DNA from: a phage
Assembly (NCBI GenBank): GCA_026209155.1
Contig: GCA_026209155.1_3056.1
DNA length: 64,000 nt
Direction: 5' to 3' (one strand)
In this document: one piece after another, positions 4,047 through 42,441 of the stretch
Layout: each line of letters opens with the position of its first letter
Position numbering within the stretch: the stretch's first letter is position 1
Translations under genes and position numbers: made by a program
Notes under the pieces: model-generated
The model's database searches: none
What the model was told of the DNA's origin: nothing
The model's input: the letters and a program-made list of their open reading frames with translations, nothing else

Positions 4047-4363
4047 AAGTCCTCAACTTGAAAATCGTCTTTAAACAATCGGTTAACTATATGAGCTATT
4101 ATATCACCATGACACGGCTTTGGTTTACATGTGCATCCTAGCCTCATTCCACGTAAAGGCTCTAAATGTGCTTTAGTTATTTCTCCGGATTTAATTCGAC
4201 GTATAAAATCTTTTTTGAATAATTCAATGGCAGCCTCCCGGCTGCCAGCATCTTTACCGACGTAATTTCCCCAAAATGTACCACGGTGAATATTAACATC
4301 AAAGTCGGATTTATATTTATTCACTACCCGACATAGACGGCCCGCGTGGTAATAATTCGTCAT
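4037..4363 (-). CDS. Hypothetical small protein upstream of nrdA (nrdA.1-like), Cys/His cluster [11 protein letters not shown]
   Basis: 108-aa ORF, same strand, start overlaps next ORF, stop overlaps nrdA start. Confidence 0.55.
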
Positions 4364-4592
4364 ATTGTTTTTCCGTTAAAACAGTAATATCATAATAACA
4401 ATCAGAAGAAGTTTTAACTGTAGAAATTTTATTATCAAAATACTCACGAGTCATTTTATGAGTATAATATTTTTTGCCATAAATGATAATAGGCTGATTT
4501 GGTCCTGGAACTTCTAACTCACTTGGGTTAGGAAGTGTAAAAAGAACTACACCAGAAGTATCTTTAAATCGTAAAATCATATATCCTCGCAA
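4317..4592 (-). CDS. Hypothetical small protein (nrdA.2-like)
   Basis: 91-aa ORF in operon context between td exon 2 and nrdA. Confidence 0.5.
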
Positions 4593-4603
4593 TTAATAAT
4601 TAA

Positions 4604-4915
4604 TTACACCGCCATTTTTCCTTTAATAGGAGGGTGTGATTCGTAACCTTTAAGAACGAAATCTTTAGGCCTGAGTTTAAGAACATATTTTAATTGTTCT
4701 TTAGTAGAAAGATAACGGAATTTATAAGGCAATCCGCTTATTACCAGTTCACAAAGCTCTTTAGGTTCACGACGTAAAATTTCTTTACATTGTTCTACGT
4801 GATTCATATAGATATGAGTATTACCGCCAGAAAATATCAAATCTCCAGGAATAAGATTACACATCTTAGCTACAATATGAACTAACGCAGCATATGATGC
4901 AATATTAAATGGAAG
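4604..4915 (-). CDS. td: Thymidylate synthase exon 2 (C-terminal 103 aa, begins LPFNIASY)
   Basis: TS motif LPFNIASYAALVHIVA; the track ATG at 4916-4918 is the last three intron nucleotides, not a real start. Confidence 0.9.
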   Translation of the reverse strand, partial: LPFNIASYAALVHIVAKMCNLIPGDLIFSGGNTHIYMNHVEQCKEILRREPKELCELVISGLPYKFRYLSTKEQLKYVLKLRPKDFVLKGYESHPPIKGKMAV

Positions 4916-8374: not shown

Positions 8375-8668
8375 TTATTTTTGAATTTTATCGAGCCACT
8401 TACCAAGCTTAATCATTTCTTTAGTAGCCTTTTCCATACTTCTGAACTTAACCAATAGAGGATAGGTATCGACACCCATAACTAAACTGGTTACAAGACT
8501 GTGTTCACCCACAAGCCATAACGAATACGTTTGAATATCGAGCCCGTAATTTCTGTCTTTGTGGACCCGTACACCCATCACTTCAAATTTCTCACTAGCT
8601 TTTTCTACCGCATCCAGGAAATCATCTTTAGTCATATTAGGCCTTAAAAGTTTTTCGCAAAAGTTCAA
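8375..8668 (-). CDS. Hypothetical protein (frd.x-like)
   Basis: 97-aa ORF abutting previous ORF. Confidence 0.5.
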   Translation of the reverse strand: MNFCEKLLRPNMTKDDFLDAVEKASEKFEVMGVRVHKDRNYGLDIQTYSLWLVGEHSLVTSLVMGVDTYPLLVKFRSMEKATKEMIKLGKWLDKIQK

Positions 8669-34711: not shown

Positions 34712-34745
34712 TAATTATACCACATCCTTGTGGTAAAGTAAACTA
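34712..34745 (-). promoter_or_regulatory. T4-type early promoter (-35 GTTTAC, 17 nt, -10 GTATAAT) overlapping the gene 39 stop
   Basis: Minus-strand GTTTACTTTACCACAAGGATGTGGTATAAT. Confidence 0.55.
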
Positions 34746-36563
34746 TTGGCTCATCCATTCTTTACGAAGGTCAGCATTATCTCCCATGAGCATTTCAAAA
34801 AGCTCTTTCCAGTTCTCAGGAAGTTTAACAACATCATATACTGGGTTTTGAATCATCTCACGATATTCAGATTTTTCCAAAGAGCCAAGTCCTTTAATAT
34901 AACGGATGCTATGTTTAGGTAGAGCATCTTTGGCACTCTCATATTCAGCGACTGTATAAAACCATTCTTGTTTTTTACCGACCTGAGCGATGATTACAGG
35001 AGTTTTGACAAAGCGAATTCTTCCTTGTTCAAACAATTCTGGCCAATTACTAAAAAATCCGAGCAGAGAAGGATAAATGCTTCCTAGACCATCATGGTCA
35101 GCATCAGTCATAATAGCAATATTATGATAATTCAAGTTTTCAGCCTTTTCACCAAGAACTAATCCAGTGATTGCACAAATATCGAACAGTTCTTTGTTTT
35201 TAAGCATATCAGCATATGACATGCCCCAACTGTTAAGAACTTTACCACGCAATGGATAACCACCATGAAGTTCTTTATCACGAACATCAATAAGATATCC
35301 GATAGCAGAATCACCCTCAGTCAAGAAAAGAGTAGTATCAGCATCTTTACCGCAAAGATTCGCTTTGATATGTTTATGAACCTTAGCTTTAGAAGCCTTT
35401 TTAGCTGCTTTAGTTTCTGCTGCTTTTTCTGCCGCCAATTTACGAGCCAAAGCAGCTTCAATAATCGGCATTAGAATTGCTTCATTATTTAGAATAGCGC
35501 GTGAAATCTTTTTAGCATCAAGCTGAATATGACTACGAATTTCGCCAAATGGAGAAGTCAAACGCTCTTTAGTTTGAGAATCAAATCGCATGTTTTTCAT
35601 ATCACGAACAAACATAACGATAGTCAAACATTCTTTAACACGTGCTTTAGTTACATCAATTTTGAACTTACGTTTGATTTGTGGAATAAGGTCTTCACAA
35701 ATATCATCCATAACGCAGTCAATGTGATGGCCACCATTCTTAGTATGAATGTTATTGACGTATGTTAATTGACGAAAACCATCCGGTGAACGACCAACCG
35801 CAATAGAACAATTTTCTTGTTCTTGAACAATAGCATGTTCATCATATTGGCGTGCATATTTCTTAAAATTACCCTGAACCTTTTTACCATTAAAGGTAAA
35901 TTGAATATCAGGATAAACTACTGCAAGTGTCTGGAGACGATCTAGCGTAATGTCAAGATAAACTTGAGATAGTTCATTAGTTTCAAATGACATAAAATCA
36001 GGAATGAAAGTAACACGAGTTCCTTTCCATTTTCCAGGAATAGTTTCCCATGATTTATTTTCCATGCCATTTGAACAACGAACTACAATATTATTTTGAC
36101 CATCGCCAGTTTCACCGACAAACATCACAGAAAAAATGTTAGTTAAACTAGAGCCAACACCGTTCATACCGCCAGTGACGCGTTCTTTATCATCACCAAA
36201 GTTACCACCTGCTTTTGGAATAGTCCAGGCAGCAACAGGACCAGGAATTTCTTCACCAGTAGGTGTTTTAACCATCGCTTGTGGAATACCACGACCGTTA
36301 TCTTCAACTGTTACTTGATTGTTTTTGATAGTAACATTAATTTTATTTGCGAATTTAAACTTAGTACGAATACCTTCATCTACTGAGTTATCGATAATTT
36401 CATCAATAAGCTTAACAAGACCAGGTACATACTGAACACTTTCCCATTTACCAAACAGAAAGCGCTCATGCATTTCATTAGCGGAAGAGCCAATGTACAT
36501 GCCGCTACGCTTTTTGATATGTTCAATATCGCTCAGAATTTTAATTTCATTCTTAATCATCAC
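34743..36563 (-). CDS. 39: DNA topoisomerase II large subunit gp39, uninterrupted (GyrB-like ATPase plus Toprim region that is gene 60 in T4)
   Basis: 606-aa continuous ORF; C-terminal IAIMTDADHDGLGSIYPSLLGFFSNWPELFEQGRIRF segment is contiguous. Confidence 0.9.
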   Translation of the reverse strand: MMIKNEIKILSDIEHIKKRSGMYIGSSANEMHERFLFGKWESVQYVPGLVKLIDEIIDNSVDEGIRTKFKFANKINVTIKNNQVTVEDNGRGIPQAMVKTPTGEEIPGPVAAWTIPKAGGNFGDDKERVTGGMNGVGSSLTNIFSVMFVGETGDGQNNIVVRCSNGMENKSWETIPGKWKGTRVTFIPDFMSFETNELSQVYLDITLDRLQTLAVVYPDIQFTFNGKKVQGNFKKYARQYDEHAIVQEQENCSIAVGRSPDGFRQLTYVNNIHTKNGGHHIDCVMDDICEDLIPQIKRKFKIDVTKARVKECLTIVMFVRDMKNMRFDSQTKERLTSPFGEIRSHIQLDAKKISRAILNNEAILMPIIEAALARKLAAEKAAETKAAKKASKAKVHKHIKANLCGKDADTTLFLTEGDSAIGYLIDVRDKELHGGYPLRGKVLNSWGMSYADMLKNKELFDICAITGLVLGEKAENLNYHNIAIMTDADHDGLGSIYPSLLGFFSNWPELFEQGRIRFVKTPVIIAQVGKKQEWFYTVAEYESAKDALPKHSIRYIKGLGSLEKSEYREMIQNPVYDVVKLPENWKELFEMLMGDNADLRKEWMSQ

Positions 36564-36629: not shown

Positions 36630-36902
36630 TTATTTAAAACGGATAGTCGAATCCTTGAAGAATAGACCAGAACACACGGTTCCTTCTACTTTCTGCCCAG
36701 TAGGTCCAATAGCACGAAATCCAGTATGCTGGAAATCATTTTCAGAGCAACCGAACCAATTATATCCAGTGATTTCAATATTAGTAAAACCACTTGAAGA
36801 CAAAACTTTGGTTGCATTATCGGCATCAGTACATCCTACTAAAGATACTGCTAATACTAATGCCGCGATAGAACGATTAACATATTTCATAATTTCACTC
36901 AA
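36630..36902 (-). CDS. Putative lipoprotein (signal peptide plus lipobox LVGC)
   Basis: 90-aa ORF, N-terminus MSEIMKYVNRSIAALVLAVSLVGCTDADN; followed by UUCG hairpin. Confidence 0.55.
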   Translation of the reverse strand: MSEIMKYVNRSIAALVLAVSLVGCTDADNATKVLSSSGFTNIEITGYNWFGCSENDFQHTGFRAIGPTGQKVEGTVCSGLFFKDSTIRFK

Positions 36903-37272
36903 ATTTAATGGCTTGAAGAAGACTAATAATTCTCAAGCGACTTCTTTCATCTTTAACTGTAAAAGAAAGAGGGTCACCAGATTTCATAGTGATGGTGCAT
37001 CCAAAATCAAAATCTTCTGTAACTTCTTCGAATAGGTCAAATTCTTCATCATAAATTAGAACATTACTCTGAAAACTGTGAAGAATTTTTCCATCATTTC
37101 CAGATGCTGTACTAATCACTGTAACATTATTACCTTTCATATCTTCAACGATAAATTCGCTTGTAGATATTACATTACTAATAGAACCATTCCTATAAAT
37201 AGCAGAAAATAGATATTTCTTTTCTTCACCTTCGCGAATGCGATATTTCTTACCGATTTTAAACATAATCAC
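36895..37272 (-). CDS. Hypothetical protein (39.x-like); start may be GTG or the third-codon ATG
   Basis: 125-aa ORF. Confidence 0.5.
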   Translation of the reverse strand: MIMFKIGKKYRIREGEEKKYLFSAIYRNGSISNVISTSEFIVEDMKGNNVTVISTASGNDGKILHSFQSNVLIYDEEFDLFEEVTEDFDFGCTITMKSGDPLSFTVKDERSRLRIISLLQAIKFE

Positions 37273-37447: not shown

Positions 37448-37867
37448 TTATTCCTTAAAATGTGCTTTCAACATCTGATACAAAGACCATGCATGTTCAT
37501 TATTTTCAATAGTAACTTTCATTACCGGGAATTCTGTGAAATCTTCTATTTGTTCTTGCTCTTCCTGCTCTTGTTCTTCAGCAGCCTGATATGGATTTTC
37601 AACTTCATCAAAGAACCCAGCTTCACTTTTTGAAAGCCAAATAAAGTCTTCATCCAAAACATCTTTATCAGGAGATAGTACTAAATTTCCAGTAGATGAC
37701 AAAATTTTAATAGGACGCCCAAGAGCGTCCACATCTAAAATTTTAAAAGGATACATACCTAAACGGCGCGCATAAATTCCGTTATTAATATGGTCTTTAA
37801 TAAAATTTTCTTGAGCTTGTTTATTTTTAAATTGATACCATTTATTAACTTCAAATCTAATAGCCAT
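37448..37867 (-). CDS. Hypothetical protein with acidic [10 protein letters not shown] segment (possibly goF-like)
   Basis: 139-aa ORF. Confidence 0.5.
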
Positions 37868-38082
37868 TAATAAATTTCCTTCCAGTAAGTTGTACCGTCT
37901 TCAGTGATTTCACGGAATACACCGTAAATTGGCTGTTTATCACCAACCTTTTCATACACATAAACCGAAGTCAAGTGAGTAAACTTAATGGTGTGTTCCT
38001 TTTGAACCACTACCAAATCTGGATCGAATAATACATCTTCAAATTCGTCATTAGTGCATTTCTGAACAGTTTTACGTTTCAT
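37867..38082 (-). CDS. Hypothetical small protein (possibly cef-like)
   Basis: 71-aa ORF downstream of inverted-repeat/promoter region. Confidence 0.45.
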
Positions 38083-38175
38083 TACAATTTCCTCATTAAT
38101 TGAACAGTGGAGCGATGCGTTTCAGAAGAGTAGCAGCACCTTTGGCAAATTTTCCATTTTATTCTCCAAGTTGTT

Positions 38176-38222
38176 TTCTGTATCAGTAGTTGATATTGAT
38201 ATAATACCATAATCAACTACTG
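38176..38222. repeat. Perfect 13-bp inverted repeat (ATCAGTAGTTGAT / ATCAACTACTGAT) around a 17-nt AT-rich spacer, inside an early-promoter-like region
   Basis: Read directly; the left arm is the conserved early leader block, the right arm is its exact reverse complement. Confidence 0.6.
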
Positions 38223-38253
38223 ATGTATATAGTTTTATGAAAAAATTTAAACT

Positions 38254-38751
38254 TTATGCACAGCGGGCTTTGCTATAGTGTTTAATCCAACTTTCGGGAA
38301 TGACTTTGTATGTTCCTAAAAATACCGCGTTGTACAACTTAACGCCATCTTCTACCCATTGATCGGTAATGTATGCACACATAGCACGAGTACGGTGTTT
38401 TTGAACAACCCCTTCCTCATCTTCAGTAAATTCGAATTCATAAGGAGCAATGAACTTAATAGCCTGACCGAGTTTCCACTTAAAGTCTACACCTACATGC
38501 GAAGTATCAATCGTTTCAATTCCTTTAGCAGGAACAGCTTTCAAAAACGCAGATTCAAGAAATTTCGCACGAACATAGCCAAACTGAGGTTTAGACTTTC
38601 CATCTTTAGGAATGATACGCACTTTTACTTCAGAATCTTCATCTTTAACGCCATGTTTAAGCTGAATGCTTACAATTTCGACCAATTTTCCTGCTGCTTT
38701 AGAACGGGATTTATCAGATACACGAGCAATTTCACCAATATTAATAATCAT
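38254..38751 (-). CDS. Hypothetical protein, paralog A of tandem pair (possibly MotB-like)
   Basis: 165 aa; C-terminal motif AYITDQWVEDGVKLYNAVFLGTYKVIPESW shared with next ORF. Confidence 0.55.
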   Translation of the reverse strand: MIINIGEIARVSDKSRSKAAGKLVEIVSIQLKHGVKDEDSEVKVRIIPKDGKSKPQFGYVRAKFLESAFLKAVPAKGIETIDTSHVGVDFKWKLGQAIKFIAPYEFEFTEDEEGVVQKHRTRAMCAYITDQWVEDGVKLYNAVFLGTYKVIPESWIKHYSKARCA

Positions 38752-38827
38752 AGTTATCTCTCACTTGTTAAAAAGATTTTATACTCCACAGGACCATTAT
38801 ACTCTGGTCCCAAGAGTTTGTAAACTA

Positions 38828-39370
38828 TTAATTCAAAATAGCTACCACCGCACTACGAGGTACTACACTAAAATCACCTGCATGAACAACGTTCAGAAGT
38901 TCAACACCATCTTCAATCCACTGGTCTGTTACCCAACCGCAGACTGAAATAAATGGAGTCTTGATAGCTACCGCACGAGTTAGAAGGTCTGTAGGGTCTT
39001 GTTCTTCAACTTCTTGGAACAGGATGAACTCTGCTTCATAAACCAGGATTTTCTCTATTTTGTTATTGTCTAAACGACGACCGTGTACAATATAAGATTT
39101 AGTAAACCATTTACTTTTTTCAAAGTCTTCAACAGTAAATTCGCCTTCGCCAAAAACATCAGTCAGAGTTTTATGGCCGGAAATCAAGGCATTAGTTTTA
39201 ATTTCAGGTTCAACCAGTTTGTAGGTTTTGCCGATTTCAATAGCGGTAGTCATAGTAGGTTCCTTAATTTCCAGTGGTTTAACAGGGCATACATAAGTGC
39301 TTACAACATCAAAATCAATCAGTTTAGCTACCGGATTTGGTATGTATTCAGGATTATAATTAAATTTCAT
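38828..39370 (-). CDS. Hypothetical protein, paralog B of tandem pair
   Basis: 180 aa; C-terminal motif GWVTDQWIEDGVELLNVVHAGDFSVVPRS. Confidence 0.55.
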   Translation of the reverse strand: MKFNYNPEYIPNPVAKLIDFDVVSTYVCPVKPLEIKEPTMTTAIEIGKTYKLVEPEIKTNALISGHKTLTDVFGEGEFTVEDFEKSKWFTKSYIVHGRRLDNNKIEKILVYEAEFILFQEVEEQDPTDLLTRAVAIKTPFISVCGWVTDQWIEDGVELLNVVHAGDFSVVPRSAVVAILN

Positions 39371-39372
39371 AA

Positions 39373-39912
39373 TTATCTCATTTCAATAAAATCTATGAGT
39401 TCAGCATGCGATTTGCGGAACATTACTTGGTGCCCGCCAATGATAACTTCATCTTCAGGAACTTCGTATACAGCGAGATAAAATCCTTTAGAAGATAATT
39501 CTTCCCGCTCTTCTCGTGTGAACCATCTCATCATATCATATTCACTAGCGAAAGCAAAATGATAAAGAGCTATAAACCATCCTGGAATATGATATTCTAC
39601 TCCAACATAATCTTTCTTGAACTTAGTATTAATTACTATATTAGCGTTTTTAACTAATAGTTTATCTTCGTGTGGTAAAGGAATTCTTTTATTATTATCG
39701 CTATGATGCATAAAATTAGGTCTGTCATAACCTACGTGTAATAGCCACTCTTCGCTCCATGAATCTATTATACTCCTGTACGGCGTTATTTGAACACAAA
39801 GATTTCGACGTATTGTTATAGCATCTTCATAATCAAGAATACTAAACGATGATTCAACACGATAAATTTTCATTTTATTATCCTCAGTAGCTATGGTGTT
39901 ATAATACCACAA
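39373..39912 (-). CDS. Hypothetical protein
   Basis: 179-aa ORF immediately downstream of early promoter after dexA. Confidence 0.5.
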   Translation of the reverse strand: MWYYNTIATEDNKMKIYRVESSFSILDYEDAITIRRNLCVQITPYRSIIDSWSEEWLLHVGYDRPNFMHHSDNNKRIPLPHEDKLLVKNANIVINTKFKKDYVGVEYHIPGWFIALYHFAFASEYDMMRWFTREEREELSSKGFYLAVYEVPEDEVIIGGHQVMFRKSHAELIDFIEMR

Positions 39913-39932
39913 CTAACCGAGGAAGTAAACAA
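39895..39932 (-). promoter_or_regulatory. T4-type early promoter (-35 GTTTAC, 17 nt, -10 GTATTATAA)
   Basis: Minus-strand GTTTACTTCCTCGGTTAGTTGTGGTATTATAA. Confidence 0.55.
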
Positions 39933-39936
39933 CTTT

Positions 39937-40620
39937 TTATCGTTTTGTTGGAAGAGAAAGAGGATCGCACTCTTCTTCTGACGGAGCATCTTCAAGACCC
40001 ATAGCATATCGCAAAGCATACTTCATCATCAGGATGTCTTTCGCACAGTCATGAATAGAATCATGTGCAACGAATCCATCTAAAGTTCCCTTTGGAAGAG
40101 GACACGTGGTCATATCACGAACAAGGAGAAGTGCTTCAATTCTGGTACGAATATCACGCTGATTCCAGAATTTACACGGTTCTAACTTAAATGTGTCAAG
40201 TTCATTCTCAGAAACGCCATTAAGACGTTGAATATCGCGAATGAGATCGACTAAAATTGGAAAATCAAACGACATTCCACGGCACCAGCCTTGAGATTTC
40301 CAAGGATCGATGTTATGTGCATTGATGTAATCATTAAATTTTGCAATACCATCGATAGTGCTTACATCTTCATCTGATGGTGCAATATTTTTTCGAGCTT
40401 CGGGAGACTGATTTTTCCACCATTCGATAGTGCTTTTAGTAAAAAGACGATGTCCTTTTTGGCTTTTTAAATCAAATTTGATTTTAATGCCGCGCGAAAC
40501 TAATTCATCAAATGATTCAACTACTTCTGGATTAGGGTCAAAGGCAATAACAGCCAAATCAATAACAGCTGCCTTTTCACCGCTTCCCATTGTTTCAAAA
40601 TCTATAATAAAATCAAACAT
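39937..40620 (-). CDS. dexA: Exonuclease A (DEDDh 3'-5' exonuclease)
   Basis: 227 aa as in T4 DexA; N-terminal FIIDFETMG exo motif. Confidence 0.88.
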   Translation of the reverse strand: MFDFIIDFETMGSGEKAAVIDLAVIAFDPNPEVVESFDELVSRGIKIKFDLKSQKGHRLFTKSTIEWWKNQSPEARKNIAPSDEDVSTIDGIAKFNDYINAHNIDPWKSQGWCRGMSFDFPILVDLIRDIQRLNGVSENELDTFKLEPCKFWNQRDIRTRIEALLLVRDMTTCPLPKGTLDGFVAHDSIHDCAKDILMMKYALRYAMGLEDAPSEEECDPLSLPTKR

Positions 40621-40895
40621 TAAATTTTCCTCGCTAAATCGCGAATTTGACCTACAGTATAATCTTGGATATAAACTTTATTAATGGGCTCATCAATAAA
40701 TTTTGCCATAGATTCAATATCTTTTTGTATCTCTTCAAGACTGTATACTATCTTTAAAGCTTTTTCGCGAATAGTAACATTATCAGGTCCTAGATTTTCC
40801 TCAATGACAGCTTTAACATTTGTCATAAGAGATTTAAATTGATGCAAACTTAATTCAATCATTAATAACCGCCTTATAAAGATGGCTAATTTCAC
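40620..40895 (-). CDS. Hypothetical protein (dexA.1-like)
   Basis: 91-aa ORF. Confidence 0.5.
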   Translation of the reverse strand: MKLAIFIRRLLMIELSLHQFKSLMTNVKAVIEENLGPDNVTIREKALKIVYSLEEIQKDIESMAKFIDEPINKVYIQDYTVGQIRDLARKI

Positions 40896-41121: not shown

Positions 41122-42441
41122 TCATACATAAAACACATCATAACGACCACGTGTTACACCAACATAAAGAAGCTGCTGAGCTAGTTCAGCATCTGCATAA
41201 TGAATACAAGGCGTATAGATAAAAGCACGGTCTACAGACATGCCCTGAGCTTTATGGAATGTTGATGCGGGAAGTGCTTTCACTTTACTAAACTGTGATT
41301 TAGCATCCCAAAAATCACTCCACGGAGCTTTTCCACCTTTATTCCAATTTTTATAAGTTTCTGCCGTTTTACCTAAAAATAAGTTAAACTTATACAGCTC
41401 TTCATCAGATGAAATTATTTTAATCTTTTCACGATAATATTCATCATCGCCGTAAGTTTCTACTGTTAAATCCCAATGACGAATTAGATATTCTCCAGAA
41501 ACACCACGAGCTTTAACAAATGTTGATGTATACTCTGCTTCTATAATACGAACTAATTGTCCGTTATTAAAAATAATTTCTGACACAGGCTTTCCATCAA
41601 TTTTATATGTTTTAATTAATGGTTCCTGCATTACAATAATTTCACCAACGATAAAATCTTTATCAGTTTCAAAAATCTTTTTGCGAATAATGCTATTCAA
41701 CTTATCAACAGATTTATTCGTAAATGCCATTACGCGATTTTCAAACAAATCATCTAGTGATTTAACGATTGAAAAATAATTTACCATAAAATCGCGTAAA
41801 GCGGTATCACCAGTAAATCCACGTACTCCGTGTCCGTCAACAATTTTATCATAAATCCACTTACCGTTACGAACATCAGTAGCTACATCAATAATAGGAG
41901 CATTACTGCGTTTAACTTCAGTGAGTTCACACTGATAAAAGTCTTTGTGTGTAAAGAATGGACTGATATAAGCAGTGTTTTCTCCTGGGTCAACAGGTCT
42001 AATTTGCTTATTATCGCCTATTCCAATTATAGTACACCACGGCGGAATAGTTGAAAGCAGAATTTTAAATAGCTTTCTATCATACATTGACACTTCGTCG
42101 CAGATTAATACTCTGCATTTAGCCAAATCCGGTACTTCTTTTTGCTCAAAAAGAACGTTTTCTTCGTATGTTACTGGGTTAATTTTAAGAATACTGTGAA
42201 TAGTACTCGCTTCTTTCCCTGATAGTTTTGAAAGAATCTTTTTAGCTGCGTGTGTAGGAGCTGCTAAAATAATTCCAGTTTCGCCTGTAGATATTAAGGC
42301 TTCAATGATGAACTTAGTAAGAGTAGTCTTACCGGTACCAGCAGGTCCATTAATAGTTACATGATGTTTCTTTTCTTTAATAGCCCTCATAACAATGTTA
42401 AAGGCATTTTTCTGGCCTTCGGTCAAATCATCAAATGTCAT
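41122..42441 (-). CDS. dda: Dda DNA helicase (SF1)
   Basis: 439 aa as in T4 Dda; Walker A GPAGTGKTT. Confidence 0.92.
   Translation of the reverse strand: MTFDDLTEGQKNAFNIVMRAIKEKKHHVTINGPAGTGKTTLTKFIIEALISTGETGIILAAPTHAAKKILSKLSGKEASTIHSILKINPVTYEENVLFEQKEVPDLAKCRVLICDEVSMYDRKLFKILLSTIPPWCTIIGIGDNKQIRPVDPGENTAYISPFFTHKDFYQCELTEVKRSNAPIIDVATDVRNGKWIYDKIVDGHGVRGFTGDTALRDFMVNYFSIVKSLDDLFENRVMAFTNKSVDKLNSIIRKKIFETDKDFIVGEIIVMQEPLIKTYKIDGKPVSEIIFNNGQLVRIIEAEYTSTFVKARGVSGEYLIRHWDLTVETYGDDEYYREKIKIISSDEELYKFNLFLGKTAETYKNWNKGGKAPWSDFWDAKSQFSKVKALPASTFHKAQGMSVDRAFIYTPCIHYADAELAQQLLYVGVTRGRYDVFYV

What the first reader, a model, noticed from the sequence alone, without database searches (positions are those of the whole stretch)
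38254..39370. Tandem paralogous genes sharing a C-terminal TDQW(V/I)EDGV(K/E)L motif
ORFs 38254..38751 (165 aa) and 38828..39370 (180 aa) end with nearly the same 30-aa block (AYITDQWVEDGVKLYNAVFLGTYKVIPESW vs GWVTDQWIEDGVELLNVVHAGDFSVVPRS) but have unrelated N-terminal halves. This suggests a duplicated domain fused to different partners. They occupy roughly the motB position of T4, but I cannot confirm identity.
Basis: seen in the sequence. Interest (0 to 1): 0.5.

Follow-up and report, generated by a model that had tools for sequence, protein, structure and literature searches.

The report
T4 motB and motB.1 paralogue pair

Summary
The 165-aa ORF (38254-38751, minus strand) and the 180-aa ORF (38828-39370, minus strand) share a significant C-terminal block: BLASTP 16/32 identical, E 4e-11, and 0 of 2000 shuffles reach the real score. 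Profile comparison extends the homology to about 51 columns (hhalign 98.6%, E 1.3e-15).

The window is a Tequatrovirus. The 165-aa protein is MotB, 89% identical to T4 MotB and a full-length match to Pfam PF17613. The 180-aa protein is a full-length MotB.1-family member (phrog_2333). Gene order is as in T4: dexA, motB.2, motB.1, motB, cef, goF.

It was published by Patterson-West et al. 2021 (PMC7827196). Kim et al. 2025 (PMC12152347) assigned the MotB.1 N-terminal domain to a GoF/Frd.2 LSm-like family.

Three smaller points may be new:
- The AlphaFold2 models suggest the shared domain is an SH3-like small beta-barrel, not an OB-fold.
- That domain is acidic in MotB.1, so it looks more like a docking module than the DNA-binding surface.
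- The 119-aa MotB.1 of the T4 reference genome comes from one extra G. Re-sequenced T4 genomes encode 143 aa with the complete shared domain.

Novelty: already known. Interest: low.

The parts
38254..38751 (-). motB gene (165 aa plus stop), orthologue of T4 MotB
   Evidence: 89% identical to T4 MotB. Pfam PF17613 matches residues 1-163, E 2.8e-99. phrog_1671, E 2.8e-76.
38548..38751 (-). MotB N-terminal domain (aa 1-68): basic small beta-barrel that resembles KOW domains
38488..38547 (-). MotB inter-domain linker (aa 69-88), predicted disordered and variable in length among homologues
   Evidence: pLDDT below 50 for residues 69-86. Large indels at this position in alignment A2.
38257..38487 (-). 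MotB C-terminal domain (aa 89-165), the shared domain with a beta-hairpin insertion
   Evidence: AF2 strands at 97-112, 115-134, 137-144, 147-152 and 156-159. hhalign to the 180-aa family. Alignment A4.
38290..38385 (-). Shared core block in MotB (aa 123-154, AMCAYITDQWVEDGVKLYNAVFLGTYKVIPES)
   Evidence: BLASTP E 4e-11. tblastn coordinates.
38796..38824 (-). Strong sigma-70-type promoter-like site (TTTACA, 17 nt, TATAAT; 11 of 12 matches) in the 76-nt gap just upstream of motB, starting 4 nt after the motB.1 stop
   Evidence: Best-scoring site in the consensus scan. The sequence is almost identical in T4. Function as an early promoter is inferred, not shown.
38828..39370 (-). motB.1-family gene (180 aa plus stop), the full-length form with an intact MotB-type C-terminal domain
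   Evidence: phrog_2333 over the full length, E 3.5e-85. Pfam PF17613 on residues 142-175, 34 bits against a cut-off of 25. An identical 180-aa protein is already in public records (P0001).
39254..39370 (-). N-terminal leader (aa 1-39), predicted disordered. It carries the motif LIDFDVVSTYVCPVKPLEIKE, which acts as an inter-module linker in relatives
   Evidence: pLDDT 33-37. The same motif lies between modules, or between the N- and C-terminal domains, in P0083, P0256, P0268 and P0273. Some annotators start the protein at M40 (141 aa; PP01 'MotB.1').
38999..39253 (-). N-terminal module (aa 40-124): acidic barrel of the GoF/Frd.2/MotB.1 type, called LSm-like in the literature
   Evidence: AF2 pLDDT 78-90. 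phrog_622, E 4.5e-6. BLASTP E 4e-6 to the window's 125-aa GoF-family gene. LSm-like assignment in PMC12152347.
38831..38998 (-). C-terminal domain of the 180-aa protein (aa 125-180): the minimal form of the shared domain, acidic (pI 4.3)
   Evidence: AF2 strands at 133-137, 142-153, 156-163, 166-171, a 3-10 turn at 172-174, and a strand at 175-177. It is the most conserved part of the family, 84% mean identity against 60% for the N-terminal module. pI.
38852..38947 (-). Shared core block in the 180-aa protein (aa 142-173, SVCGWVTDQWIEDGVELLNVVHAGDFSVVPRS)
   Evidence: BLASTP. tblastn.
36895..37272 (-). 125-aa GoF-family gene, paralogous to the N-terminal module of the 180-aa protein (context only, not part of the pair)
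   Evidence: phrog_622, E 2.5e-28. BLASTP 25/86 identical, E 4e-6.

Best explanation
The two ORFs are the early, non-essential genes motB and motB.1 of a T4-like phage (Tequatrovirus). They are old paralogues built on one plan: an N-terminal small beta-barrel, a flexible linker, and a conserved C-terminal small beta-barrel of 50-70 residues. Only the C-terminal barrel is homologous between them. MotB carries a basic barrel that resembles KOW domains. The 180-aa MotB.1 form carries an acidic GoF/Frd.2-type barrel, called LSm-like in the literature. By orthology (89% identity), the window's MotB should behave like T4 MotB. T4 MotB is an abundant protein that binds DNA tightly without sequence specificity. 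It remodels H-NS/StpA-DNA complexes, de-represses H-NS-silenced host and prophage genes, and roughly doubles burst size. My inference for the shared domain is that it is not the main DNA-binding surface. I think it is a common docking or assembly module that brings two different nucleic-acid-binding N-terminal barrels to the same target or to each other, while MotB's basic N-terminal barrel makes most of the DNA contact. Shown here: identity, paralogy, domain boundaries, predicted secondary structure and charge. Taken from the literature on T4: DNA binding and the H-NS effects. Inferred: the docking role of the shared domain. I put the identity and architecture at about 0.95 and the docking-module mechanism at about 0.4.
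For: Identity and synteny. Significance of the paralogy. Age of the duplication: the shared block is only 52% identical at nucleotide level, and 10 of its 16 identical residues use different codons. Both families occur across T4-like phages of Escherichia, Shigella, Yersinia and Klebsiella. Intermediate architectures link the two families over the whole domain: a MotB-type N-terminal barrel, a VDTDVxSMY linker and a MotB.1-type DPTDLL C-terminal domain, some with a MotB-like insertion (P0288-P0298). Two-domain AF2 models with disordered linkers. The C-terminal domain is the best-conserved part of the MotB.1 family (84% against 60%). Charge: MotB N-terminal domain pI 9.75, MotB C-terminal domain pI 6.9, MotB.1 C-terminal domain pI 4.3, whole 180-aa protein pI 4.8. 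MotB biochemistry and the earlier description of the shared domain: PMC7827196. MotB.1 N-terminal domain as LSm-like, and the lack of a phenotype for a motB.1 deletion: PMC12152347.
Confidence: 0.9

Rival explanations
1. The shared C-terminal domain is an OB-fold nucleic-acid-binding domain, as proposed from HHpred in 2021. On this view both proteins are DNA- or RNA-binding through that domain, and it is the functional core of MotB's DNA binding.
Confidence: 0.2
2. The similarity is a recent gene-conversion or recombination patch between neighbouring genes, not an old duplication kept by selection.
For: This locus clearly recombines. Modules and linkers are shuffled among relatives. A 43-aa chimera exists that joins the MotB.2 N-terminus to the tail of the MotB.1 C-terminal domain (P0293).
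Against: Nucleotide identity in the block is only 52%, and 10 of 16 identical residues use different codons. Each family keeps its own diagnostic residues across genera: VKLYN.VF in MotB against VELLNVVH in MotB.1.
Confidence: 0.03
3. The gene model of the 180-aa ORF is too long. The real product would start at Met40 (141 aa), and the first 39 codons would be a remnant of a lost upstream module and its linker.
For: Residues 1-41 are predicted disordered, pLDDT 33-37. The leader contains the linker motif that lies between modules in the 248-251-aa relatives. An AAGGA Shine-Dalgarno-like sequence lies 7 nt before the Met40 codon (sequence). Some records annotate the 141-aa form (P0105, P0112 'MotB.1' of PP01). 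T4 MotB.1 starts at the equivalent position.
Against: The Met1 ATG lies 2 nt after the motB.2 stop codon, a typical coupling arrangement. Most records annotate 180 aa. The leader averages 77% identity to the window protein across the aligned relatives that have it, and phrog_2333 covers the protein from residue 1.
Confidence: 0.3
4. The match is a chance or compositional similarity between two unrelated small proteins.
For: It is short (32 aa) and only 50% identical.
Against: E 4e-11. z = 15, with 0 of 2000 shuffles reaching the score. hhalign probability 98.6%. The Pfam motB model hits the 180-aa protein above its curated cut-off.
Confidence: 0.01

Closest known systems
T4 MotB (Pfam PF17613, phrog_1671; Patterson-West et al. 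2018 and 2021)
   Same: The 165-aa protein is 89% identical over its full length, sits in the same genomic position and has the same two-domain plan. The strong promoter-like site upstream is almost identical in sequence in T4.
   Different: It is 3 residues longer, through a small indel inside the hairpin insertion of the C-terminal domain (FEFTEDEEGVVQKHRTRA against FNFIKDDGRVVYTRA). Nothing suggests a different function.
T4 MotB.1 and the MotB.1 family (phrog_2333; 'Categories 2 and 4' of Patterson-West 2021; Kim et al. 2025)
   Same: Same position between motB.2 and motB, the same C-terminal domain, and the same class of N-terminal module.
   Different: The N-terminal module is a different subtype from T4's. 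BLASTP aligns only residues 103-152 with T4 residues 64-115. It therefore probably belongs to the paper's 'Category 4', but I did not check it against the paper's lists. It also has a 39-aa disordered leader. The T4 reference entry (119 aa) lacks most of the C-terminal domain because of a 1-nt insertion, whereas re-sequenced T4 encodes 143 aa.
GoF / Frd.2 / MotB.1 LSm-like family (phrog_622; PMC12152347)
   Same: The N-terminal module of the 180-aa protein matches phrog_622. It is 29% identical to a GoF-family gene 1.5 kb away in the window.
   Different: GoF-family proteins have other C-terminal regions and lack the MotB-type domain. No Sm motifs, ring assembly or RNA binding have been shown for MotB.1.
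Tandem SH3-like small-barrel readers (53BP1 tandem Tudor, Spt5 KOW repeats, NusG C-terminal domain)
   Different: Sequence identity is only 10-20%. Pfam detects no KOW or Tudor match even at E up to 10. This is a fold-level resemblance only, and the tables do not show which domain was aligned.

Membership tests
MotB (Pfam PF17613 / phrog_1671), for the 165-aa protein | Full-length match to the family model above the curated cut-off | tested here: met
   330 bits against a cut-off of 25, residues 1-163 on profile positions 1-160 of 162. phrog_1671, E 2.8e-76. 89% identity to T4 MotB.
MotB (Pfam PF17613 / phrog_1671), for the 165-aa protein | Conserved position: downstream of motB.1 and motB.2, upstream of cef and goF, on the same strand as dexA and dda | tested here: met
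   ORF order in the window compared with the T4 annotation and a close relative.
MotB (Pfam PF17613 / phrog_1671), for the 165-aa protein | Tight non-specific DNA binding, co-purification with H-NS/StpA, toxicity when over-expressed | not testable with these tools
   Known for T4 MotB only (PMC7827196). Inferred here from 89% identity.
MotB.1 family (phrog_2333), for the 180-aa protein | Full-length match to the family profile | tested here: met
   E 3.5e-85, residues 1-180 on profile positions 1-210. 233 homologues, all carrying PF17613.
MotB.1 family (phrog_2333), for the 180-aa protein | MotB-type C-terminal domain (DPTDLL...GWVTDQWIEDGVELLNVVH...VVPRS) | tested here: met
   PF17613 on residues 142-175, 34 bits against 25. 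hhalign E 1.3e-15. Invariant columns in A3 and A4.
MotB (PF17613) as a whole-protein family, for the 180-aa protein | MotB-type N-terminal domain (VS..SRSKAAGK motif) | tested here: not met
   The Pfam match covers only profile positions 120-153. hhalign finds no N-terminal match. The label 'MotB-like transcriptional regulator' on this gene in some records reflects the C-terminal domain only.
GoF/Frd.2/MotB.1 LSm-like family (phrog_622; PMC12152347) | N-terminal module detectably related to GoF-family proteins | tested here: met
   phrog_622, E 4.5e-6 on residues 44-125. BLASTP E 4e-6 to the window's 125-aa phrog_622 gene. No direct BLASTP match to the window's goF itself.
LSm/Hfq proper | Sm1/Sm2 motifs, ring oligomer, RNA binding | not tested
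KOW domain (NusG/Spt5), for the MotB N-terminal domain | Sequence match to a KOW model | tested here: not met
OB-fold (cold-shock / eIF5A C-terminal type), for the shared C-terminal domain | Order strand 1-2-3, helix or loop, strand 4-5, with OB proteins as the closest folds | tested here: inconclusive

The most novel reading that the evidence does not exclude
MotB and full-length MotB.1 could act as a matched pair. On this reading the shared SH3-like C-terminal barrel is a common docking or hetero-association module, for example onto the H-NS/StpA-DNA filament or another host factor. It would bring a DNA-binding KOW-like barrel (MotB) and a possibly RNA-binding LSm-like barrel (MotB.1) to the same place. 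The published negative results for MotB.1 might then partly reflect use of the 119-aa form from the reference sequence, which lacks this domain.
Probability: 0.15. Interest if true: 0.5.

Novelty: already known. Interest (0 to 1): 0.15.

Why it matters
The flagged observation adds nothing beyond Patterson-West et al. 2021: MotB and MotB.1 share a C-terminal domain, have different N-terminal domains, and probably arose by duplication. The by-products have modest practical value for people working on T4 early genes.

- The T4 reference annotation of motB.1 is truncated by one extra base. Experiments built from that sequence probably miss the conserved domain.
- The shared domain looks SH3-like and is acidic in MotB.1. 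This shifts the expected DNA-binding surface of MotB to its basic N-terminal barrel, which can be tested with two truncated constructs.
- The family is very small: only 19 cluster representatives among 1.84 billion. It is also highly modular, which makes it a clean small example of domain shuffling in a phage accessory region.

Tried and rejected
- **Chance similarity:** rejected by BLASTP, shuffles, hhalign and the Pfam cut-off.
- **Recent gene conversion:** rejected by 52% nucleotide identity and codon usage in the block.
- **Further copies of the shared domain in the window:** none found by six-frame tblastn.
- **Sequence relatives of the shared domain in the PDB:** none at E up to 10.
- **Pfam matches for the four isolated domains:** nothing other than motB at E up to 10.
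- **Homology between the two N-terminal domains:** none found by BLASTP or hhalign.
- **Direct similarity of the 180-aa protein to the window's goF:** none by BLASTP. The link runs through phrog_622 and the 125-aa paralogue.
- **Domain-level fold search:** not possible.
- **motB.2 (39373-39873):** no informative Pfam match, only a weak sub-threshold SRA hit (E 0.09). Not pursued.
- **Intrinsic terminators in 37800-40700:** none found.

Full report
**What is at the coordinates.** The window is AT-rich (about 35% G+C). Its genes between 34.7 and 43.5 kb lie on the minus strand. Megablast of 38000-40000 finds 682 phage records, the best at 98% identity, nearly all Tequatrovirus (T4-like phages of Escherichia and Shigella). 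Compared with the T4 annotation and a close relative, the minus-strand order is:

- dda (41122-42441)
- dexA.2 and dexA.1
- dexA (39937-40620)
- motB.2 (39373-39873)
- the 180-aa ORF (38828-39370)
- the 165-aa ORF (38254-38751)
- cef (37867-38082)
- goF (37448-37867)
- 39.2, a 125-aa gene, a 90-aa gene, and a fused 606-aa gene 39

**Checking the observation.** Both quoted peptides are present. BLASTP gives one ungapped match, MotB residues 123-154 against residues 142-173 of the 180-aa protein, with 16/32 identical and E 4e-11. The Smith-Waterman score of 107 compares with 30.4 +/- 5.0 (maximum 59) in 2000 shuffles. A six-frame tblastn of each C-terminal domain against the whole window finds only the other copy.

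The Pfam motB model (PF17613) matches the 165-aa protein end to end (330 bits). It also matches residues 142-175 of the 180-aa protein at 34 bits, above its curated cut-off of 25. I aligned family alignments built from database homologues with hhalign. This gave 51 aligned columns, residues 128-177 against 93-159, with probability 98.6% and E 1.3e-15.

So the shared unit is a whole domain, not only the 30-aa block, and MotB carries an insertion of about 16-20 residues in it. Two points of wording need correcting: identity is 50%, and the block is followed by 11 and 7 more residues.

**Identity of the two genes.** The 165-aa protein is 89% identical to T4 MotB. The 180-aa protein matches phrog_2333 over its full length (E 3.5e-85). 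Its residues 103-152 are 48% identical to T4 MotB.1. An identical 180-aa sequence already exists in public records under names such as 'hypothetical protein', 'transcriptional regulator', 'MotB-like transcriptional regulator' and 'MotB.1'.

**Already in the literature.** Patterson-West et al. [quoted passage not shown] They sort 102 homologues into categories by N-terminal domain. Kim et al. 2025 (PMC12152347) place the MotB.1 N-terminal domain with GoF and Frd.2 in an LSm-like beta-barrel family. Only these two papers in the searchable library mention motB.1.

**Architecture of the family.** An exhaustive HMMER search of 1.84 billion cluster representatives finds only 19 at E up to 1e-3, so the family is small. 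A tblastn of one distant member against phage genomes matches 768 records, the listed ones being T4-like phages of Escherichia, Shigella, Klebsiella and Yersinia.

The distant representatives are informative. P0288-P0298 combine three elements:

- a MotB-type N-terminal domain (VYVS..S.SKVAGE)
- a VDTDVxSMY linker
- a MotB.1-type C-terminal domain beginning DPTDLL

Several of them also have a MotB-like insertion in that domain. One such protein is the 'transcription modifier protein' of a Klebsiella phage. Alignment A4 lines up DLLCKAV of MotB.1 with WALCKGV of MotB. This supports homology from the first strand of the domain onwards.

Within the MotB.1 family the N-terminal part is modular. 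It holds one or two GoF-type modules, and the linker motif IDFDVxSxYxxPxKPLxIKE occurs in three positions: before a module, between two modules, or between module and C-terminal domain. In the window's protein this motif lies in the first 39 residues, which AF2 predicts to be disordered. These residues look like a remnant of a lost upstream module.

The N-terminal module itself (aa 40-124) is 29% identical (E 4e-6) to the window's 125-aa gene at 36895-37272. That gene and goF both match phrog_622. The 'different partner' is therefore also a duplicated unit.

**Age of the duplication.** The shared block is only 52% identical at nucleotide level, and 10 of its 16 identical residues use different codons. 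Each family keeps its own diagnostic residues across genera. This indicates an old duplication held by purifying selection, not recent gene conversion.

**Structure.** AF2 with family alignments gave two-domain models.

| Feature | 180-aa protein | MotB |
|---|---|---|
| Mean pLDDT | 72.6 | 79.2 |
| Disordered region | residues 1-41 | linker, residues 69-86 |
| N-terminal domain | 45-120 | 8-67 |
| C-terminal domain | 133-177 | 97-159 |

In both C-terminal domains the element order is a first strand (short in the 180-aa protein), a long second strand, two tight hairpins to strands 3 and 4, a 3-10 turn and a short strand 5. In MotB the first two strands are lengthened into a long hairpin, which is the insertion. 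From established knowledge, this is the order of SH3-like small barrels. OB-folds normally have a helix or long loop between strands 3 and 4.

The tables do not say which domain was aligned, and I could not search the domain alone. I therefore treat 'SH3-like, not OB' as likely but unproven. It differs from the HHpred-based OB assignment of 2021.

**How it most likely works.** For MotB, function can be transferred from T4. T4 MotB binds DNA tightly without sequence specificity, alters H-NS footprints, up-regulates H-NS-repressed host and prophage genes, is toxic when over-expressed and improves phage fitness (the roughly two-fold gain in burst size is from my recollection of the 2018 abstract). 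A near-consensus sigma-70 promoter-like site (TTTACA, 17 nt, TATAAT) lies in the 76-nt gap before motB and is almost identical in T4. This fits early expression.

For the shared domain I rely on charge and conservation:

- MotB's N-terminal barrel is strongly basic (pI 9.75).
- MotB's C-terminal domain is neutral (pI 6.9).
- MotB.1's C-terminal domain is acidic (pI 4.3), as is the whole 180-aa protein (pI 4.8).
- The C-terminal domain is the best-conserved part of the MotB.1 family: 84% identity against 60% for the N-terminal module.

I infer that the shared domain is a docking or assembly module and not the DNA-binding surface, with about 0.4 confidence. No partner is known, and the T4 authors found no DNA-independent contact between MotB and H-NS. 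The function of MotB.1 remains unknown. A T4 motB.1 deletion has normal burst size and latent period.

**A by-product: the T4 reference motB.1.** T4 MotB.1 in NC_000866/AF158101 is 119 aa and ends ...GWVTDQWIGRWR. Aligning it with the window shows one extra G (ATTGGAAGATGG against ATT-GAAGATGG). The next frame still encodes EDGVELLNVVHAGEYSVVPRSAVVAILN.

The evidence that this extra base is peculiar to the reference record:

- The 143-aa 'repaired' protein exists exactly in public data on 256 contigs. The 119-aa form is on 2.
- Eleven other near-identical records span 600 nt where the reference has 601. They are nine records labelled T4 or T4T (KJ477684-6, MT984581, HM137666, OL964735, OZ035787, OZ209023, OZ209057) plus RB55 and RB59. 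Two further T4 records (MZ375356, OL964745) span 597 nt and were not examined.
- MT984581 annotates a 143-aa MotB.1 and differs from the reference only by that G over the 600 nt compared.

The truncation is therefore either a sequencing error in the reference record or a mutation in the stock that was sequenced. Kim et al. describe MotB.1 as 13.8 kDa, and their expression plasmid came from gene synthesis. It probably encoded the truncated form, but this is my inference and not something the paper states.

**Verdict.** Novelty: already known. Interest: low (0.15).

Noticed in passing
L001 (NC_000866) 4292-4651 and the 150-nt gap 4143-4291; corresponds to window 38828-38990: The 119-aa motB.1 of the T4 reference genome results from a single extra G. 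Re-sequenced T4 records lack it and encode a 143-aa protein with the complete MotB-type C-terminal domain. That exact 143-aa protein is on 256 public contigs, against 2 for the 119-aa form. Published MotB.1 work used the 13.8-kDa form.
   Followed up: yes
P0293 (43 aa); corresponds to window 39373-39873 joined to 38831-38920: A public 43-aa protein joins the first 17 residues of MotB.2 (MKIYRVESSFSILDYED) directly to the tail of the MotB.1 C-terminal domain (GVELLNVVHAGDFSVVPRSAVVAILN). This points to a deletion between short YED/IED homologies that removes most of motB.2 and motB.1 in some phages. It may be the same kind of remnant as the 29-aa RB69 peptide in 'Category 3' of PMC7827196.
   Followed up: partly
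NC_004928 (RB69) 8379-8602, hit H94: In RB69 the tblastn match to the MotB.1-type C-terminal domain comes in two pieces spanning 'motB.1' and a separate 'hypothetical protein'. This suggests that the RB69 gene is also split in the deposited sequence.
   Followed up: no
window 39254-39370 (aa 1-39 of the 180-aa ORF): The leader carries the motif LIDFDVVSTYVCPVKPLEIKE, which in relatives links two GoF-type modules or links the module to the C-terminal domain. An AAGGA Shine-Dalgarno-like sequence lies 7 nt before Met40, so a 141-aa product is possible.
   Followed up: partly
window 36895-37272 (minus strand): The gene at the '39.1' position is 125 aa and a clear GoF-family (phrog_622) member. 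T4's 39.1 is only 65 aa. With goF and the motB.1 N-terminal module, this gives three GoF-type modules within 2.5 kb.
   Followed up: partly
window 38083-38253: The cef-motB gap is about 209 nt shorter than in the closest relatives, which carry an extra 270-nt ORF there (SHGT_048 in OR887633). Only a 44-aa TTG-start ORF (38082-38216) and a weak promoter-like site (38229-38201) remain in the window.
   Followed up: no
window 34743-36563 (minus strand): The topoisomerase II large subunit (gene 39) is a single 606-aa ORF here. In T4 it is split into gene 39 (516 aa) and gene 60, so this phage lacks that split at this locus.
   Followed up: no
window 39373-39912 (minus strand): motB.2 (166 aa from the ATG at 39873; the ORF list extends it to a TTG at 39912) is 91% identical to T4 MotB.2. 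It has no informative family match, only a sub-threshold SRA-domain hit at E 0.09.
   Followed up: no
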